The position numbers were made by a program, and so were the translations under genes. The notes beneath the pieces are model-generated. The model saw only the letters and a program-made list of their open reading frames with translations. It searched no databases and had not been told where the DNA came from. Positions 1,874-12,961 of a stretch of 39,908 nucleotides of DNA are shown here, in pieces. Origin of the DNA: a virus. Lineage: Duplodnaviria > Heunggongvirae > Uroviricota > Caudoviricetes. The DNA lies in IMG/VR virus record IMGVR_UViG_2703718871_000021, positions 1 through 39,908 of that record, one strand, 5' to 3'. How positions within the stretch are numbered: the first letter of the stretch is position 1; each line of letters begins with the position of its first letter.

Positions 1874-2070
1874 TACTGGCTGCGACATTTTTGAATAAAA
1901 GCGTCGACATTTCGGCGCTCATAACGAACTACTTTTGCACTGAAACGAATTGGTGCCAAGATAGCCCGATGACGATGCTTAATATTCCACTCACATAGCG
2001 TTTTCTGTGTAATACCTAACTTTTGGCATACTTCATCCGGGGTGAGTAAATCGTCGGGTTTCTCGCTCAT
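1870..2070 (-). CDS. AlpA/Xis-family excisionase or transcriptional regulator (helix-turn-helix)
   Basis: 66-aa ORF; LLTPDEVCQKLGITQKTLCEWNIK resembles the AlpA-type HTH; sits beside the integrase as excisionases usually do. Confidence 0.65.
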   Translation of the reverse strand: MSEKPDDLLTPDEVCQKLGITQKTLCEWNIKHRHRAILAPIRFSAKVVRYERRNVDAFIQKCRSQY

Positions 2071-3461
2071 GCTATACCTCTCTTTTTCATGGCATCGAGC
2101 AGGATGTCCTGCACTGTTCGTTTTGAGTTGCGCCGCTCCATCACCATTTCGTCCATAGTGTCGGCAGCAATAATGTGGTGAATAAATACCGGACGATTGT
2201 GTCCGGCCTGTATCTGTCTGGTTGGGCCGATACGTTCAATAATTTGCTGATACTGCTCCAGGTCCCACCAATGTGAGAAAAATACCAGTATGTTTCCGCC
2301 GTCCTGCATGTTCAGACCGTGGCCCGCGCTGGCTGGGTGTGCAAAGAGAACAGGAATCTTTCCGGAATTCCAGTCACGTAGTGTCTGTGGATCCTGGTCG
2401 AGGTTACGACCGCGAGGAAATGCTTTAAGCAAGCGTTCAAGATCGTGTTTCCAGTGATAAGCAACCAGCACAGGTGCGCCAGCTGCTTCGGTCAGTATGC
2501 TGTCCAGCGCCTGTAGTTTGGTGTCATGCAGTTCTGACCAACTTCCGGTGTCATCTGTGTATACTGCGCCGCTGGCGATTTGCAGACACTTCAGTGTCTT
2601 TGCCGCGGCGTTCGGTGCTTCGATGCCTTCGCCATTCAGCTCGAGGAACATTTCCTTTTCCATTTCACGATACTGCTGACGGGCCTTCGGCGGCATATCC
2701 ACGCGGATTACGTTATGGATGGGGTCTTTGATATCGAACCAGTCGGTCGCATCCAGCGAGAGGGTCACATCGGCTAACGCTCGCTGTATTTCACCCTGTG
2801 AGTGAGCAAAAGGCTCCAGTTTGGTCCAGCTCTGTCCCGGAAACTGTATCGATTTGAACCAGCGTGAGGTAAACGCGCCGTAAGTGCGCCCGAGACGTTG
2901 CCCCAGGTCCACAAACCACGATTGTCCCCACAAATCTACCAGGCCGTTCGGTGCTGGCGTACCGGTGAGATTTATCCAGCGCCGGACATACTTGTGCGCC
3001 ACTTTGCCCAGCGCCGCCGCGCGCTTACCACCACCTCGCAGCCGGAAGGATTTTAGCCGGGTGCTTTCATCTGGAATGACAGTACCGAACGGCCATCGTT
3101 CTCCCAATTCCTCAACCAGCCAGACAAGGTTATCGTAGTTGATGGTGAACACGCTCGCGTTGTTGTTCGCCAACGCTGCAGAGCGCGCTTTGGCATTACC
3201 AACAATTGGTTGTACCTCGATATTGCGCAAATGCCCCCACTTCAGTGCTTCATCCGGCCATGTGCTGGCAGCCACGCGCAGCGGCGCGAGAACCAGCGCA
3301 GGTTGTGTTTCTGCACCCGCCATGAAGAGGTCTTCCAGCGTAGTGAGTGTCGCTACGGTTTTACCCATTCCCATACCCGCCCAGATGTTGCCGCGCAGAA
3401 TGTTAGTTTGGTGATTGATTATGAGGTTTTGATAAATTCTGGGGTGGAATATGCTATTCAT
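2067..3461 (-). CDS. SNF2/DEAD-like superfamily-2 helicase (phage replication/recombination)
   Basis: 464-aa ORF; Walker A GMGMGKT near N-terminus, DExx-type box VIPDEST, C-terminal helicase-like region; start overlaps the excisionase stop (operon). Confidence 0.8.
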   Translation of the reverse strand: MNSIFHPRIYQNLIINHQTNILRGNIWAGMGMGKTVATLTTLEDLFMAGAETQPALVLAPLRVAASTWPDEALKWGHLRNIEVQPIVGNAKARSAALANNNASVFTINYDNLVWLVEELGERWPFGTVIPDESTRLKSFRLRGGGKRAAALGKVAHKYVRRWINLTGTPAPNGLVDLWGQSWFVDLGQRLGRTYGAFTSRWFKSIQFPGQSWTKLEPFAHSQGEIQRALADVTLSLDATDWFDIKDPIHNVIRVDMPPKARQQYREMEKEMFLELNGEGIEAPNAAAKTLKCLQIASGAVYTDDTGSWSELHDTKLQALDSILTEAAGAPVLVAYHWKHDLERLLKAFPRGRNLDQDPQTLRDWNSGKIPVLFAHPASAGHGLNMQDGGNILVFFSHWWDLEQYQQIIERIGPTRQIQAGHNRPVFIHHIIAADTMDEMVMERRNSKRTVQDILLDAMKKRGIA

Positions 3462-3522
3462 TAATACACCTATGGTAGAATATGGTCACTTCTCTCTCTA
3501 TATATAACTAACGGAGGCGGGT

Positions 3523-4320
3523 ATGCCCCTGGCGAAAATATTTACAAAGCAAGTTTCTTTATTAACTATGTTTTCAGCGTTAGCTTATGCGATGGCATAT
3601 TATTTTCAGAAAGGTGTTGCATCGTATTATGGCTATCCAGACCTTTTTATTAAAATAGACTTAAATACGCTATTGTATTCGGCTGTGTGGCTTTTGTTTT
3701 TTAGTTTTTTATTTCTCGGCGCCTTATATGCGGCGTTGATGTTTGATTTGAAAGGAAAATATTATGTTCCATTTATTGTATTTATAGTTGTTATGCTAAT
3801 GGCTAATATTTGTATAATAGGATTTCATTGGCCTTTTGGTTATTTCTCCGAAACTTCTGTGATGAGTGTTCAGGATATTTTATTATTTGCTATGCTTTTG
3901 TTGAATTATCACAATGTGGTGTCCATGCCAATCCATAGTAAGAGACACGAACATCATATGGAGAGCATTAGAAAATTTGGGAGGCTTGCAGAGTATAAGA
4001 ACGTATTTTATTATATCGATTTAAAAATCCTAAAGTCAGCTTTTCCTTTAGGGGTGATAACGTTGTTGATATTGAGCTATACATTCGGGAAGGTTACTGC
4101 ATTTAAAAATAACGAATATTATATGGTAGATGGTAGTAATACTAAAGTGTTGCTCAATTCATTTGGTAGTGGTTTTGTTGTTGGTGATTGTGAGTCAAAT
4201 AGCGCAAAATTTGAATTTGTTAATGATTTAAAAGGGATGAGATTCACAATCATGTCCTCTAAAAAGGAAATAGCTAAATTAAAAGAGTGTTTCGAAATAC
4301 GTGTTAAAAATACGGATTAA
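3523..4320 (+). CDS. hypothetical multi-pass membrane protein (AT-rich cargo gene)
   Basis: 265-aa ORF on the strand opposite to the surrounding early operon; visibly AT-rich; several long hydrophobic segments (LLYSAVWLLFFSFLFLGALYAAL, FIVFIVVMLMANICIIGF); GAGG-type RBS before ATG. Confidence 0.55.
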   Translation: MPLAKIFTKQVSLLTMFSALAYAMAYYFQKGVASYYGYPDLFIKIDLNTLLYSAVWLLFFSFLFLGALYAALMFDLKGKYYVPFIVFIVVMLMANICIIGFHWPFGYFSETSVMSVQDILLFAMLLLNYHNVVSMPIHSKRHEHHMESIRKFGRLAEYKNVFYYIDLKILKSAFPLGVITLLILSYTFGKVTAFKNNEYYMVDGSNTKVLLNSFGSGFVVGDCESNSAKFEFVNDLKGMRFTIMSSKKEIAKLKECFEIRVKNTD

Positions 4321-4332
4321 AGCATAAGTCTT

Positions 4333-4620
4333 TTATCCTTTATTGCGGCTTAAAATAATGGCCTCCAGATTTTTGCTATCCAGCACCACTACGGTAAAGC
4401 CCAGCGCGCGCAACCGTCCGTGTTCGCGCAACTGGTCAGGCCGTGGTGGCTTGCCGGGGGATTTACATTCAACGAAAATGATACGACCGCCGGGTAGCAG
4501 AACAATGCGATCTGGTACCGAGCGGCGACCGGGGGATACGAACTTAAAGGCAACCCCGCCAGCCTTTTTTACTTCAGCGACGAGGTGCTTTTCGATTAGG
4601 TTTTCACGTTCATAGGCCAT
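4333..4620 (-). CDS. VRR-NUC domain nuclease
   Basis: 95-aa ORF; EVKKAGG...FVECKSPGKPP...QLREH...GF pattern typical of VRR-NUC (PD-(D/E)xK-type) phage proteins; commonly paired with SNF2 helicases. Confidence 0.75.
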   Translation of the reverse strand: MAYERENLIEKHLVAEVKKAGGVAFKFVSPGRRSVPDRIVLLPGGRIIFVECKSPGKPPRPDQLREHGRLRALGFTVVVLDSKNLEAIILSRNKG

Positions 4621-4814
4621 TAGCTTTCGCCTTCCTGCTTTTTGCGTTTCTTCATGCAGATAGCGCAGTTCTCAGGATGGTCATGCCATTCATCAATCCT
4701 GATACCTGTGAACATCCATTTTCCGCATAGTGATATGGCTTCCCCCGAATTAAAGAAATGTGCTTTTTTTGACAGAGCGGGGAACCCCCAACCCTTATTA
4801 TCGATATTAGACAT
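4620..4814 (-). CDS. hypothetical small protein
   Basis: 64-aa ORF with strong RBS AAGGAGGTG before the ATG; stop overlaps VRR-NUC start; Cys/His-containing C-terminal part (HDHPENCAICMKK). Confidence 0.5.
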   Translation of the reverse strand: MSNIDNKGWGFPALSKKAHFFNSGEAISLCGKWMFTGIRIDEWHDHPENCAICMKKRKKQEGES

Positions 4815-4850
4815 CGTCCACCTCCTTACGCTTTTCGCGCATGTTCTGCA

Positions 4851-4985
4851 TCAGACAAAAATCAAACCGACGTTCGCTTTGGCCCAGACCTGCATCGCCC
4901 GGTCGTACCCGCCGGACTGTTCAAGGTGCAAAGCCTCCCGCACAGTCCGGTAATAAAGCGGACTGTCTCGGTATTTAAATGACAT
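4851..4985 (-). CDS. hypothetical small protein (44 aa)
   Basis: Short ORF found by hand (MSFKYRDSPLYYRTVREALHLEQSGGYDRAMQVWAKANVGLIFV), immediately upstream of and co-oriented with the 64-aa gene; below the 60-aa ORF-track cutoff. Confidence 0.3.
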   Translation of the reverse strand: MSFKYRDSPLYYRTVREALHLEQSGGYDRAMQVWAKANVGLIFV

Positions 4986-5000
4986 AGGGTTTTTATTCCC

Positions 5001-5048: not shown

Positions 5049-5810
5049 TTACGAGGAAGCGTTAGCTATTTGAGCTTGTGTAAATTCGAAACCAGAATTT
5101 TGTAACCGTTGCACTAGACGAGGAACTGTTTCACGTACATGGTCGTTGAAATTCAGATACAAAATCCCGTTAGCATCAGAAGGCTGTTCTAGGTGCTGTT
5201 TCTGAAGGATTGCTACATTGCTGCGCCCTAAGGACGAAAGAAGCATACCCATCTCGAGTACAACGTTCTGTCTTGCGCGGGGTTGGATTTCTGCTTCACC
5301 GGCGCGCTTTGAGTATCCCATATCATCAGGTGTCAAAAGAACAATCCCGAAACGGGTAGCAGTTTGTCCTTGCCCAATTTCACGTTCAAGCTCTTCAATA
5401 ATGGTGAGTCCAGTCCCTCCCGTATTCTGCAAAATGAAATGGTCTGGTAATCCAAGTTTATGAAGGATTAGCTCAAGTTGCTCCTTTGCAGTATGGTCAT
5501 GGCCGTGAACAATGAATATCTTTTTGGGGAGCTCAGATGGCTGTTCTACGGCTAGTGGTGTTGCCGTGGGCGGCGTTCCTAAATGGGTCATTATTGCAGT
5601 TTCAACATTGGGACGTTCTTGAGGGTTACCTTGAAACTGAATGGTCCGGGTGGTGTAAAGGTTAACAATTACGCCATTCGTTAAACGATAGCAGTCACAA
5701 GTCTCACGCTGTTCGTGGGAAAAATTGGTGAACCCACACTCCCTCAAAAAGTCAGGAAAAGATTCTCTCGGGTATGGATAGGTGATCGGCATTTCAGTTA
5801 GTTCCTGCAT
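5049..5810 (-). CDS. TIR-like-domain protein with unknown N-terminal domain (candidate defence or counter-defence effector)
   Basis: 253-aa ORF; residues ~97-230 (KKIFIVHGHDHTAKEQLELIL...GLTIIEELE...FGIVLLTPDDMGY...NVVLEMGML) fit my recollection of the bacterial TIR-like family (PF10137/COG4271 type); N-terminal ~95 aa unassignable; co-oriented with DNA polymerase gene. Confidence 0.6.
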   Translation of the reverse strand: MQELTEMPITYPYPRESFPDFLRECGFTNFSHEQRETCDCYRLTNGVIVNLYTTRTIQFQGNPQERPNVETAIMTHLGTPPTATPLAVEQPSELPKKIFIVHGHDHTAKEQLELILHKLGLPDHFILQNTGGTGLTIIEELEREIGQGQTATRFGIVLLTPDDMGYSKRAGEAEIQPRARQNVVLEMGMLLSSLGRSNVAILQKQHLEQPSDANGILYLNFNDHVRETVPRLVQRLQNSGFEFTQAQIANASS

Positions 5811-7984: not shown

Positions 7985-8614
7985 ATGCATATGATCCAAT
8001 ACTTGATTGACCATACAGAGCATCTGGAGAAAATAGCTGGATATATTTTTTCATGTTTGATTGTTATGGGAGTCTGGATAAGAAAGATCATTTTTAATTA
8101 TAAGTATAAAGAGCCTAAATATGTCAAGAAGTTAATTTTATATTTAGTTAAGTATGAACGTTATCTGGATGAGGAGGATAAGAGTGCCATAGAAAAAAGA
8201 ATAAATGATAAAATTATTCGTGATGCGCTGAAATTGCAATCCTCTTATAACCGAAGAGATGTTATTTACATTTGCAATAGATTAGAAAAAAGACAGTATA
8301 TAAATCAGTTGATTAAGCTTCAGAATTATATAGAGAAAGATAACGGAGTGTTTTTTATTAATGTTGATTTTTCAGGTTTTTTATTTATTATTAGTCGTCT
8401 GTTTTCCTTTCTGTGTTTTGTGCTGTTTACCCTTTTTTCTATTATCTGCATTATTTCCATAGGGCAAAATGAAGGCCTTTTAAATTATCTTGTGTATATG
8501 GTTATGATAATAGTTTTAGAGACTGTTGGTTTTTGGATGTATGATACTTTCCCGTCTAAGAAAAAGATCTGTGAACTAAATAAAGAATTGAGAAAGATTA
8601 AGATTCCTGAGTGA
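7985..8614 (+). CDS. hypothetical membrane protein (AT-rich cargo gene)
   Basis: 209-aa ORF on opposite strand to flanking replication genes; strongly AT-rich; Lys/Tyr/Ile-rich with hydrophobic segments (FLFIISRLFSFLCFVLFTLFSIICIISIG, LVYMVMIIVLETVGFW). Confidence 0.55.
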   Translation: MHMIQYLIDHTEHLEKIAGYIFSCLIVMGVWIRKIIFNYKYKEPKYVKKLILYLVKYERYLDEEDKSAIEKRINDKIIRDALKLQSSYNRRDVIYICNRLEKRQYINQLIKLQNYIEKDNGVFFINVDFSGFLFIISRLFSFLCFVLFTLFSIICIISIGQNEGLLNYLVYMVMIIVLETVGFWMYDTFPSKKKICELNKELRKIKIPE

Positions 8615-12217: not shown

Positions 12218-12841
12218 CTAACGTTTACGGCGGTAAATACGGTGTTCGATCATTACACCTATGATCTGTAAGTTCATATCTGCACTACGAAAAATAGGGT
12301 AATCAGGATTTAGGGGGATTAATTCAAAGTCGTCGATGCCGATTCCTAATGGACGGTATTTTTTAAATGTAGCTTCGTGACCGTCGTTTTTGGCGACAAC
12401 AAACTCCCCTGGTGCAGGACATAGCTCAGGATCGATGATAACAATGTCTCCTTCTTTAAACTCTGGTTGCATGCTGTCGCCATCAATACGTAATGCGAAG
12501 CATGTTTCTGGAATGTCAGAGTCTGCCAAAATATATTCAAATTCCCCTGTCAGATCTGTTATGTCTCTTGCTTCTGTAAGCTCTCCTGCCTGAACGTAAC
12601 TTAATATAGGTATGCGTCTGGTACTTATCTCCGCGAGAGGCATAATATTTTTACCGTTCAGTAGCCAGTCTGGGCTACATTTCAAGGCCTTAGCCAGATC
12701 CAGAAGATTGCGTGGCTTTCTAGTTCGTCCACTTTCGATGGATTCTATGGATTGTTGGCTAACCCCTGCAGAATTCGCTACTTCCACTTGAGTCATTCCT
12801 AATTCCAAACGACGTGCTTTAAAACGGGCTGCGAGAGACAT
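12218..12841 (-). CDS. cI-like repressor (XRE-type HTH plus S24 LexA-like peptidase domain)
   Basis: 207 aa from ATG 12841 (RBS AGAAGGA); N-terminal HTH (LGMTQVEVANSAGVSQQSIESIESG); C-terminal S24 signature with Ser in GDSMQPEF and downstream Lys (FKKY); ORF-track start 12892 is probably an upstream non-ATG artefact. Confidence 0.85.
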   Translation of the reverse strand: MSLAARFKARRLELGMTQVEVANSAGVSQQSIESIESGRTRKPRNLLDLAKALKCSPDWLLNGKNIMPLAEISTRRIPILSYVQAGELTEARDITDLTGEFEYILADSDIPETCFALRIDGDSMQPEFKEGDIVIIDPELCPAPGEFVVAKNDGHEATFKKYRPLGIGIDDFELIPLNPDYPIFRSADMNLQIIGVMIEHRIYRRKR

Positions 12842-12961
12842 GGGATTAGTCCTTCTGGGTTGTATTAATGTGTATACCCACATTAAAAACAATTTTTGTT
12901 GTATTTGACAAACCTTGTTTGTTGTTGCTAAATACCACTAAAATTGTATGAGGTGAAAGCA
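12842..12961. promoter_or_regulatory. divergent promoter/operator region between repressor and cro-like gene
   Basis: 120-bp intergenic; rightward promoter candidate TTGACA (12905-12910) with TG-n-TAAATA extended -10 (~12926-12934); repeated TTGTAT-containing motifs and inverted repeat ATGTG...CACAT. Confidence 0.45.

What the first reader, a model, noticed from the sequence alone, without database searches (positions are those of the whole stretch)
3523..4320. AT-rich membrane-protein gene on the opposite strand within the early-left operon
Strong drop in GC relative to neighbours, opposite orientation, and a 265-aa product dominated by hydrophobic segments. Compositionally foreign, divergently oriented membrane proteins in prophage early regions are frequently superinfection-exclusion or abortive-infection factors.
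Basis: partly seen in the sequence, partly recalled or inferred. Interest (0 to 1): 0.55.

Follow-up and report, generated by a model that had tools for sequence, protein, structure and literature searches.

The report
Prophage hotspot gene: TfpB-like membrane protein
An AT-rich, backwards-facing gene in an E. coli prophage encodes an uncharacterised five-helix inner-membrane protein of the TfpB family; it sits in a swap-prone slot that in sister prophages holds known anti-phage genes, so it is probably a phage-exclusion factor, but no function has been tested.

Summary
ORF 3523-4320 (+) is a real 265-aa gene with 32% GC against 50% for the window. It lies antisense inside the leftward early operon, between an SNF2 helicase and a VRR-NUC nuclease.

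- **Protein:** it is predicted to be a five-helix inner-membrane protein. The N-terminus is cytoplasmic, and a small C-terminal beta domain with a covarying cysteine pair faces the periplasm.
- **Family:** it has no local Pfam, PADLOC or NCBIfam hit and no fold relative in PDB or BFVD. It is a remote homologue of Moraxella TfpB (hhalign 94.6%), an ORF of unknown function in the pilin inversion cassette. It is unrelated to the TfpX/Y/Z pilin accessory proteins.
- **Slot:** the ~920-bp slot is a cargo hotspot. In 159 E. coli prophages of this type it holds this gene (17), two other TfpB-like lineages (22 and 6), BstA, PDC-S42, a TIR-like protein, DUF6338 and others.
- **Divergence:** Yersinia and Klebsiella prophages carry 20-27%-identical TfpB-like genes in the same slot.
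- **Retention:** intact copies survive in decayed prophage remnants, and dN/dS is 0.12.

The best reading is a lysogen-expressed envelope defence, most likely superinfection exclusion. This is inferred, not shown.

The parts
3435..4353 (.). Variable cargo cassette (hotspot slot) between the 5' end of the SNF2 helicase gene and the 3' end of the VRR-NUC gene
   Evidence: blastn against five sibling E. coli prophages: homology ends at window 3434-3435 and resumes at 4354-4373. The slot holds other cargo in those prophages.
3473..3481 (+). Extended -10-like promoter element TGGTAGAAT, 50 nt upstream of the ATG (putative; no good -35)
   Evidence: Read from the sequence. A TGnTAnnnT motif lies 40-50 nt upstream of the start in 7 of 10 TfpB-like contexts. 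My rough estimate of the chance of >=4 of 6 independent lineages is 7e-6. It was not found by the two-hexamer consensus scan.
3513..3517 (+). Shine-Dalgarno sequence GGAGG, 5 nt before the start codon
   Evidence: Sequence read; also reported.
3523..4320 (+). CDS of the 265-aa TfpB-like inner-membrane protein (identical in amino acids to WP_001127518.1 of E. coli IAI1)
   Evidence: ORF; IAI1 annotation; aa identity 1.00; dN/dS 0.12; AlphaFold2 pLDDT 89.5, pTM 0.84; hhalign to Moraxella TfpB 94.6%.
3586..3666 (+). Most conserved stretch (residues 22-48: Y..AY.FQ.G.A.YYGYP..FI.IDLN), covering the end of TM1 and the predicted first periplasmic loop; the family signature shared with Moraxella TfpB
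   Evidence: Alignments A1-A3. Y22 is invariant in 52 sequences, and loop 1 has the highest mean column identity, 0.54. The motif aligns with Moraxella TfpB.
3925..4029 (+). Basic, His-rich loop (residues 135-169) between TM4 and TM5, predicted cytoplasmic
   Evidence: Family-wide K+R count is 4.6 in this loop. K/R are dense in the N-terminus, loop 2 and loop 4, and sparse in loops 1 and 3.
4108..4317 (+). C-terminal beta-rich domain plus terminal helix (residues 196-265), predicted periplasmic. Cys223 (4189-4191) and Cys256 (4288-4290) form a probable disulfide.
   Evidence: AlphaFold2 secondary structure. Both cysteines are present in all 36 enterobacterial-type members and both are absent in all 16 distant members.
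2067..3461 (-). Left anchor gene: SNF2-family helicase of the early operon (conserved)
   Evidence: Pfam SNF2-rel_dom 4.9e-12; 72-92% aa identity to Yersinia, Klebsiella and Raoultella prophages.
4333..4620 (-). Right anchor gene: VRR-NUC/PD-(D/E)XK nuclease (conserved), convergent with the cargo gene and separated from it by 12 nt
   Evidence: phrog_93 8e-31 and weak Pfam VRR_NUC; RefSeq annotation.

Best explanation
The gene is horizontally exchanged accessory cargo (a moron) of a temperate E. coli phage. It is not part of the replication machinery.

It encodes a non-enzymatic inner-membrane protein with five transmembrane helices. The N-terminus is cytoplasmic. The conserved first loop and a small disulfide-stabilised C-terminal beta domain face the periplasm.

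I propose that it is transcribed in the lysogen from its own extended -10 promoter, antisense to the repressed early operon. From the inner membrane it would protect the lysogen against other phages. The most likely route is interference with the passage of incoming phage DNA or ejection proteins across the periplasm and inner membrane, that is, superinfection exclusion of the P22 SieA or HK97 gp15 kind.

- **Shown:** gene reality, foreign composition, slot variability, family membership, purifying selection, and retention in decayed prophages.
- **Inferred:** topology, expression in the lysogen, and the anti-phage activity and its step.
For: **1. Accessory, not core.** The gene is in 17 of 5426 complete E. 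coli genomes, while 159 carry the same SNF2 helicase. Cassette borders are sharp at 3434 and 4354-4373.

**2. Defence-type neighbourhood in the strict sense of mutually exclusive alternatives.** The same slot holds BstA (PADLOC 1.4e-115), PDC-S42 (6e-40), a TIR-like protein (1e-6), DUF6338, Rha/Arc or Dcm in sibling prophages.

**3. Allele-like hyper-divergence at one locus.** Three TfpB-like lineages occur in E. coli (17, 22 and 6 genomes). Yersinia (27% identity) and K. aerogenes (20% identity) versions sit in the same slot, while SNF2 stays 72-92% identical. P22 SieA shows the same pattern, with three types <30% identical at one locus (PMC10883804).

**4. Kept by the host.** Intact ORFs survive where SNF2 and PolA have decayed to stubs (L007, L112/L113). 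dN/dS is 0.12.

**5. Architecture fits an envelope blocker.**
- The AlphaFold2 model is confident: pLDDT 89.5.
- The positive-inside pattern holds across 52 relatives, and the cysteine pair covaries.
- The cytoplasmic parts are small, about 35 residues.
- There are no conserved catalytic-type residues; only Y22, G31, I43 and G189 are >=90% conserved.

**6. Single-gene unit.** No partner gene is conserved across eight contexts. The neighbouring TIR gene occurs independently of it: it is absent from L017 and L109-111, and present with other cargo in L019 and L020.

**7. Own expression signals.** There is a strong SD and a positionally conserved extended -10 motif.
Against: - There is no functional evidence of any kind.
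- No PADLOC model matches the protein or any of 52 relatives. No PHROG with a known function matches; only phrog_35408, of unknown function, does. There is no fold relative in PDB or BFVD.
- The only named homologue, Moraxella TfpB, lies in a pilin locus. That points to pilus biology rather than phage exclusion.
- Hotspots also carry non-defence cargo such as Rha/Arc regulators and a methyltransferase.
- No terminator follows the gene, and the consensus promoter scan found nothing upstream of it. Expression in the lysogen is therefore unproven, and AT-rich genes in E. coli are often H-NS-silenced (general knowledge).
- tblastn found the family in none of 50,697 GenBank phage records, so its phage association rests on prophages.
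Confidence: 0.4

Rival explanations
1. Abortive-infection effector. The protein sits idle in the inner membrane and, on infection, oligomerises or opens to collapse the membrane potential, killing the cell before phage release.
For: It has the same hotspot logic as BstA, which is an Abi protein (PMC8585504). It is a multi-pass membrane protein with a basic, His-rich cytoplasmic loop at residues 135-169 that could act as a trigger site. It is a single-gene unit.
Against: The most conserved surfaces face the periplasm, not the cytoplasm where most Abi sensors act. The cytoplasmic part is only about 35 residues and is the least conserved region, with column identity 0.19. There is no match to any membrane effector in PADLOC.
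Confidence: 0.15
2. True TfpB-like function. The protein binds pilin-like proteins (type IV pilins or type II secretion pseudopilins) in the inner membrane and changes piliation. This could be lysogenic conversion or masking of a pilus receptor, as described for prophage FimU-like proteins in Pseudomonas.
For: Homology to Moraxella TfpB runs over 189 columns (hhalign 94.6%, E 6.5e-8). That gene lies between the pilin genes and piv in the inversion cassette. The periplasmic domain and the membrane helices are where pilins reside. A precedent is a prophage-expressed T4P component that provides defence (PMC12952977; title and abstract start seen).
Against: None of the enterobacterial contexts examined has a pilin gene nearby. 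The function of TfpB itself is unknown. The family is unrelated to the experimentally studied accessory proteins TfpX/Y/Z (hhalign 0.2%). By general knowledge, E. coli rarely expresses chromosomal type IV pili and few coliphages use them.
Confidence: 0.12
3. Another envelope function without an anti-phage role, for example immunity to a membrane-acting bacteriocin or effector, or stress tolerance. Alternatively, a selfish cargo gene with no benefit to the host.
For: Small multi-pass membrane proteins in islands are often orphan immunity proteins (general knowledge). Solitary copies lie in chromosomal islets next to proA in Serratia and Enterobacter. The hotspot also carries non-defence genes.
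Against: No toxin gene is adjacent in any context. The link to one slot of one prophage family persists across four genera and fits phage-phage competition better. Purifying selection and survival in decayed prophages argue against neutrality.
Confidence: 0.2
4. A core early gene with a replication or recombination role, or a spurious ORF produced by AT-rich sequence.
For: It is located inside the replication module. AT-rich DNA encodes Phe, Ile and Leu-rich peptides by composition alone.
Against: It is absent from about 90% of related prophages, which replicate without it. It is a membrane protein. An open frame of this length has P of about 4e-10 at this composition. dN/dS is 0.12. There are 69 homologue clusters and a confident fold.
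Confidence: 0.01

Closest known systems
Moraxella TfpB (Pfam PF27470), the ORF between the invertible pilin genes and piv in M. lacunata, M. bovis and M. equi
   Same: Sequence homology. A profile of the enterobacterial group hits the pilin-adjacent Moraxella ORFs at E 1.5e-6 to 6e-5 among 1138 ORFs. hhalign gives 94.6% probability over 189 columns. Shared features are the N-terminal Y..AY..G.A.Y.GYP signature, the multi-helix membrane body and, in M. caprae and M. oblonga, the C-terminal G..A...Y......YILL..G...ILG segment. Precomputed Pfam labels on homologues read PF27470 TfpB.
   Different: Identity is about 15%. The Moraxella gene lies in a pilin inversion cassette, whereas this one lies in a prophage cargo slot with no pilin gene. 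The conserved cysteine pair of the enterobacterial group is missing in Moraxella. Several Moraxella copies are truncated. TfpB has no established function, so the homology names the family but explains nothing.
P22 SieA (superinfection exclusion A)
   Same: Both are small prophage-encoded inner-membrane proteins acting as single genes. SieA exists as three types <30% identical at one locus, as do the TfpB-like lineages here (PMC10883804). This is the proposed working analogy.
   Different: There is no sequence relationship: no PHROG or Pfam link was found. SieA has 162-164 aa, three TM helices and a conserved cytoplasmic motif. This protein has 265 aa, five TM helices and conserved periplasmic parts. 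SieA's activity is demonstrated; this protein's is not.
BstA (prophage abortive-infection protein)
   Same: It occupies exactly the same slot, on the same strand, in sibling E. coli prophages (L021 and L116). It is a single-gene prophage defence.
   Different: BstA is a soluble DNA-binding protein that acts at phage replication sites (PMC8585504). It shows no homology to this membrane protein.
TfpX/TfpY/TfpZ (FimB-like) type IV pilin accessory proteins (NCBIfam NF041437)
   Same: They are membrane proteins of similar size, with N-terminal TM helices and a periplasmic C-terminal domain, encoded next to pilin genes as Moraxella TfpB is (PMC11841053).
   Different: They are not homologous: hhalign gives 0.2% probability and NCBIfam gives no hit. 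They have three TM helices rather than five, and a different conserved motif set.
Phage morons and prophage defence hotspots (HK97 gp15; P2/P4 hotspots)
   Same: A compositionally distinct, independently oriented insertion between conserved genes. It is variable among relatives and alternates with defence genes.
   Different: No terminator was found. The hotspot lies in an APSE/BPP-1-like replication module and, as far as my searches went, has not been described.

Membership tests
TfpB family (Pfam PF27470) | Significant profile similarity to bona fide TfpB | tested here: met
   PF27470 is absent from the local Pfam copy, so I tested against Moraxella ORFs fetched here. HMM of A3: E 1.5e-6 to 6e-5. 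hhalign of A3 against the Moraxella alignment: 94.6%, E 6.5e-8. Precomputed PF27470 hits are on record for homologues P0002-P0007, P0009 and P0123. The cluster representative closest to the window protein (P0001) carries no precomputed label.
TfpB family (Pfam PF27470) | N-terminal aromatic/Gly signature (Y..AY..G.A.Y.GYP) after the first TM helix | tested here: met
   Residues 22-39 of the window protein align with LSWATAYAYGWGQAAYHGYP of Moraxella TfpB.
TfpB family (Pfam PF27470) | Location next to type IV pilin genes, in the piv inversion region (the context of the founding members) | tested here: not met
   No pilin gene is called near any of the enterobacterial loci examined. The Moraxella layout is confirmed in L026.
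TfpX/TfpY/TfpZ pilin accessory proteins (NF041437) | Match to the family profile | tested here: not met
   NCBIfam gives no hit for the window protein, while Acinetobacter controls score E 1e-102 to 1e-105. hhalign gives 0.2%.
Phage moron | Composition unlike the flanks, and presence or absence among otherwise similar phages | tested here: met
   GC is 32% against 53%. The gene is present in 17 of 159 related prophages. Cassette borders were mapped.
Phage moron | Own promoter and terminator (an independent transcription unit) | tested here: inconclusive
   An extended -10 motif is positionally conserved in 7 of 10 contexts. No canonical two-hexamer promoter lies upstream and no terminator lies downstream. 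There are no expression data.
Superinfection-exclusion membrane proteins (P22 SieA type) | Sequence relationship to a known Sie family | tested here: not met
   The only PHROG match is phrog_35408, of unknown function. There is no local Pfam hit and no fold match in BFVD.
Superinfection-exclusion membrane proteins (P22 SieA type) | Inner-membrane location and a block of phage DNA entry without loss of adsorption | not testable with these tools
   Only prediction is available: five TM helices, positive-inside pattern and a covarying Cys pair.
Known or candidate anti-phage systems (PADLOC-DB 2.0) | Match to any defence protein model | tested here: not met
   There are no hits for the protein. 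For 52 family members there are none beyond two chance-level single hits.
Defence-hotspot cargo | Mutually exclusive alternation with recognised defence genes at one conserved locus | tested here: met
   BstA, PDC-S42 and a TIR-like protein occupy the same slot.

The most novel reading that the evidence does not exclude
TfpB-like proteins are a previously unrecognised family of single-gene, inner-membrane phage-exclusion factors. They diversify allele-like, down to about 20% identity, in one hotspot of an APSE/BPP-1-like prophage lineage across Escherichia, Klebsiella, Raoultella and Yersinia. Hosts keep them after prophage decay. By extension, the long-unexplained tfpB inside the Moraxella pilin inversion cassette would be an anti-phage or pilus-gating membrane factor rather than a pilus assembly gene.
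Probability: 0.3. Interest if true: 0.65.

Novelty: new member of a known kind. Interest (0 to 1): 0.45.

Why it matters
If the inference holds, it would have three consequences.

- It would give a first function to Pfam family PF27470 (TfpB), which has had none since tfpB was sequenced.
- It would add a new protein family to the short list of inner-membrane superinfection-exclusion factors.
- It would define a new prophage defence hotspot, SNF2 helicase | cargo | VRR-NUC nuclease, that already contains BstA and several untested candidates (DUF6338, a 305-aa TIR-like protein, PDC-S42 with two small partners, and a 108-aa protein).

The very divergent alleles at a fixed locus would make a convenient natural panel for mapping specificity against phage ejection or tape-measure proteins.

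If the inference fails, the gene is an ordinary uncharacterised moron.

Tried and rejected
- **Direct family scans of the protein.** Local Pfam, NCBIfam and PADLOC gave nothing. PHROGs gave only a weak hit, phrog_35408 at E 0.009.
- **TfpB equals the TfpY/FimB-like pilin accessory family.** This was my first guess from memory and I rejected it. The Acinetobacter ORFs that scored weakly (E 0.003-0.2) are NF041437 TfpX/TfpZ proteins. hhalign shows no relation, at 0.2%.
- **First AlphaFold run with 8 sequences.** It was unusable, with pLDDT 46.8. A 52-sequence alignment gave 89.5.
- **Alignment-seeded homologous-protein searches.** They were saturated by hydrophobic words and returned few new proteins and no informative names.
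- **Genome-contig scan with the family.** No species-representative genome carries a detectable relative by the patterns used. Two alignments were too divergent to scan.
- **tblastn of three family members against 50,697 phage records.** No match.
- **Two-gene system with the neighbouring TIR (PDC-S35) gene.** Rejected, because the two occur independently.
- **Homology between the two AT-rich membrane ORFs of the window.** None.
- **Literature.** No paper mentions WP_001127518 or this hotspot. The older TfpY/Z paper was not held.

Full report
**1.

The window is a temperate phage genome integrated next to yfhL in E. coli. The same prophage is in strain IAI1. Its layout is:
- integrase (470-1873, +) and an excisionase-like HTH (1870-2070, -);
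- a long leftward operon on the minus strand: SNF2 helicase, VRR-NUC nuclease, a TIR protein, family-A DNA polymerase, DUF2815/Enc34 ssDNA-binding protein and DUF2800;
- a CI-like repressor (12218-12892, -) and a Cro-like gene;
- rightward primase, antiterminator Q and structural genes.

The replication module resembles that of the APSE and BPP-1 phages.

Inside the leftward operon, ORF 3523-4320 runs the other way. It starts with ATG 5 nt after GGAGG. It has 32.3% GC (GC3 32%), against 53% in both neighbours. This is z = -3.9, within the lowest 0.5% of windows of its size.

It is not a chance ORF:
- At its composition an open frame of 265 codons has P of about 4e-10. Shuffles of the cassette never exceed 165 codons.
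- dN/dS against the Raoultella orthologue is 0.12.

**2. What the protein looks like**

Hydropathy analysis and a confident AlphaFold2 model (52-sequence alignment, pLDDT 89.5, pTM 0.84) give five membrane-length helices (about residues 11-29, 49-74, 82-101, 117-134, 170-188). TM1 falls below the 1.6 hydropathy cut-off and rests on the model alone. These are followed by a C-terminal unit of four to five beta strands and one helix (residues 196-265).

Across 52 relatives, Lys and Arg are concentrated in the N-terminus, loop 2 and loop 4, and are sparse in loops 1 and 3. This predicts a cytoplasmic N-terminus and a periplasmic C-terminal domain.

Cys223 and Cys256 are both present in all 36 enterobacterial-type members and both absent in all 16 distant ones. 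That is what a periplasmic disulfide would look like.

The best-conserved part is the end of TM1 plus loop 1 (Y22..AY.FQ.G.A.YYGYP..FI.IDLN). Only Y22, G31, I43 and G189 are conserved at 90% or more. No set of polar residues suggests catalysis, so the protein most likely acts by binding or obstruction. These topology statements are predictions.

**3. What family it belongs to**

The protein has no hit in the local Pfam, NCBIfam or PADLOC libraries, and only a weak hit to a PHROG of unknown function. There is no fold relative among solved structures or viral models.

Family size and distribution:
- A profile search of 1.84 billion representatives found only 69 clusters at E <= 1e-3.
- The clusters that carry a taxon name are all Enterobacterales 'hypothetical proteins'. 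Many others have no name or taxon.
- A further group, lacking the cysteine pair, could be traced only to metagenome sources.
- 25 of 52 members match phrog_35408.

Homologues carry a precomputed Pfam label, PF27470 'TfpB', that is not in the local library. To find out what that label means, I fetched 79 type IV pilin loci, using a Moraxella pilin recalled from memory as bait.

- The family profile hit the ORF next to the pilin gene in M. equi, M. lacunata and M. caprae at E 1.5e-6 to 6e-5 among 1138 ORFs.
- hhalign gives 94.6% probability (E 6.5e-8) over 189 columns.
- In M. lacunata that ORF lies between a pilin gene, a partial pilin and a 328-aa ORF in the position of the Piv invertase; I did not scan its sequence. 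From my own recollection of the Moraxella literature, this is the pilin inversion cassette that contains tfpB.

The label is therefore real, but the function of TfpB is not known.

My first guess was that TfpB belongs with the studied pilin accessory proteins TfpX/Y/Z (PMC11841053). This was wrong. Those proteins form NCBIfam NF041437 and show no relation to this family (hhalign 0.2%).

**4. The slot is a cargo hotspot, and TfpB-like genes are its recurrent tenants**

*Occupancy in E. coli.* 159 of 5426 complete E. coli genomes carry this helicase, but only 17 carry this gene. Homology to sibling prophages stops at 3434 and resumes at 4354-4373. The exchanged cassette is therefore about 920 bp and clips the first codons of the helicase and the last codons of the nuclease.

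In siblings the slot holds:
- BstA, a proven abortive-infection protein (PADLOC 1e-115; PMC8585504);
- PDC-S42 plus two small ORFs;
- a 305-aa TIR-like protein;
- DUF6338 plus a 47-aa ORF;
- a 108-aa protein;
- Rha/Arc regulators, or a cytosine methyltransferase.

Most single-gene cargos face the same way as this gene.

*Other TfpB-like lineages.* Three other 'hypothetical' cargos turned out to be TfpB-like, at E 1e-29 to 1e-52 with the family profile. They belong to two further lineages, found in 22 and 6 genomes. At least 45 of the 159 prophages therefore carry a TfpB-like gene here.

| Prophage host | SNF2 helicase aa identity to the window | TfpB-like aa identity to the window |
|---|---|---|
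| Raoultella | 92% | 86% |
| Yersinia | 72% | 27% |
| Klebsiella aerogenes | 92% | 20% |

All three carry the TfpB-like gene in the same slot. Every member has 31-34% GC, whatever the host.

*Other contexts.*
- An Enterobacter lambdoid prophage, between dinI and the replication genes.
- An orphan next to proA in Serratia, with no trace of the prophage genes.
- Two remnants of this very prophage. There the helicase and polymerase have decayed to stubs while the TfpB-like ORF is intact (L007, L112/L113).

No pilin gene and no conserved partner gene accompanies any of them. The nearby TIR (PDC-S35) gene occurs independently of it.

**5. How it most likely works**

The gene is accessory, under purifying selection, exchanged as a cassette and kept by hosts after prophage decay. 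It alternates with defence genes.

It has a strong ribosome-binding site. An extended -10 motif (TGGTAGAAT, 3473-3481) has counterparts 40-50 nt upstream of the start in 7 of 10 contexts. My rough estimate of the chance of this pattern is 7e-6.

Because the gene is antisense to the early operon, it could be transcribed while that operon is repressed, that is, in the lysogen. Read-through transcription during lytic growth would oppose it. This is inference.

The protein's conserved parts face the periplasm and its cytoplasmic parts are short and variable. I therefore favour a block at the envelope: interference with the conduit or inner-membrane components that incoming phages use to deliver DNA.

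P22 SieA is the closest working analogy. It is a single inner-membrane protein with three types <30% identical at one locus, and it blocks injection through the ejection proteins (PMC10883804).

My confidence levels are:
- superinfection exclusion, about 0.4;
- abortive-infection membrane effector, 0.15;
- a genuine pilin or pseudopilin-directed role suggested by the TfpB homology, 0.12;
- another envelope function, or none, 0.2.

A core replication role or a spurious ORF is excluded.

**6. Novelty and verdict**

The family is catalogued in Pfam and PHROGs, and the protein is annotated 'hypothetical' in RefSeq. As a sequence it is known; as a function it is not.

Three things appear undescribed in the papers I could search:
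- the SNF2 | cargo | VRR-NUC hotspot;
- the allele-like diversification of TfpB-like genes in it;
- their survival in decayed prophages.

This makes the gene a good, testable candidate for a new superinfection-exclusion family, but the evidence is contextual only. I rate it as a new member of a known kind (prophage moron or defence-hotspot cargo), with interest 0.45.

Noticed in passing
window 7985-8614 (+): A second AT-rich (29% GC), opposite-strand ORF of 209 aa lies between the DNA polymerase and the DUF2815/Enc34 gene. It has one N-terminal and two C-terminal hydrophobic helices and matches phrog_10579 (3e-108, unknown function), with no Pfam or PADLOC hit. The same position holds different ORFs in Raoultella (164 aa), Yersinia (229 aa) and K. 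aerogenes prophages, so it looks like a second cargo slot. It is not homologous to the 265-aa protein.
   Followed up: partly
window 5049-5810 (-): A 253-aa TIR-domain protein (Pfam CAP12-PCTIR_TIR 3e-31; PADLOC candidate system PDC-S35, 7e-109; phrog_16442) lies inside the early operon on the same strand as the early genes. It is present in some sibling prophages and absent in others.
   Followed up: partly
L019 1758-2675 (-), L020 1735-2498 (+), L022 1766-3439 (+), L023 1728-2054 (+): Other cargos of the same slot in sibling E. coli prophages are untested defence candidates: a 305-aa protein with weak TIR similarity, DUF6338 plus a 47-aa ORF, PDC-S42 plus two small membrane or coiled-coil ORFs, and a 108-aa protein.
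   Followed up: partly
L007 7100-10750; L112/L113 6800-8100: These are decayed remnants of this prophage type in other Enterobacterales. The SNF2 helicase, PolA and Enc34 genes are reduced to fragments while the TfpB-like ORF stays intact. In L007 the 89-aa VRR-NUC gene is also intact.
   Followed up: yes
L024 4635-5228, L026 5011-5598, L031 5236-5775, L028 4735-5010: Moraxella tfpB ORFs differ in completeness between species. M. lacunata and M. equi copies (195-197 aa) stop before the C-terminal beta domain. The M. caprae copy has that domain but a scrambled N-terminus. M. oblonga shows only a 91-aa C-terminal piece. Either tfpB is decaying in some species or the inversion changes its reading frame.
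   Followed up: no
window 4814-4990; L001 7414-7592: The small 'ANR family transcriptional regulator' gene downstream of the 64-aa ORF is annotated as frameshifted in IAI1 and in other carriers of this prophage.
   Followed up: no
L112 1-4955: In one Enterobacter genome the TfpB-like remnant lies beside a NACHT-type ATPase, a resolvase and an HTH gene. This setting looks like a defence island.
   Followed up: no
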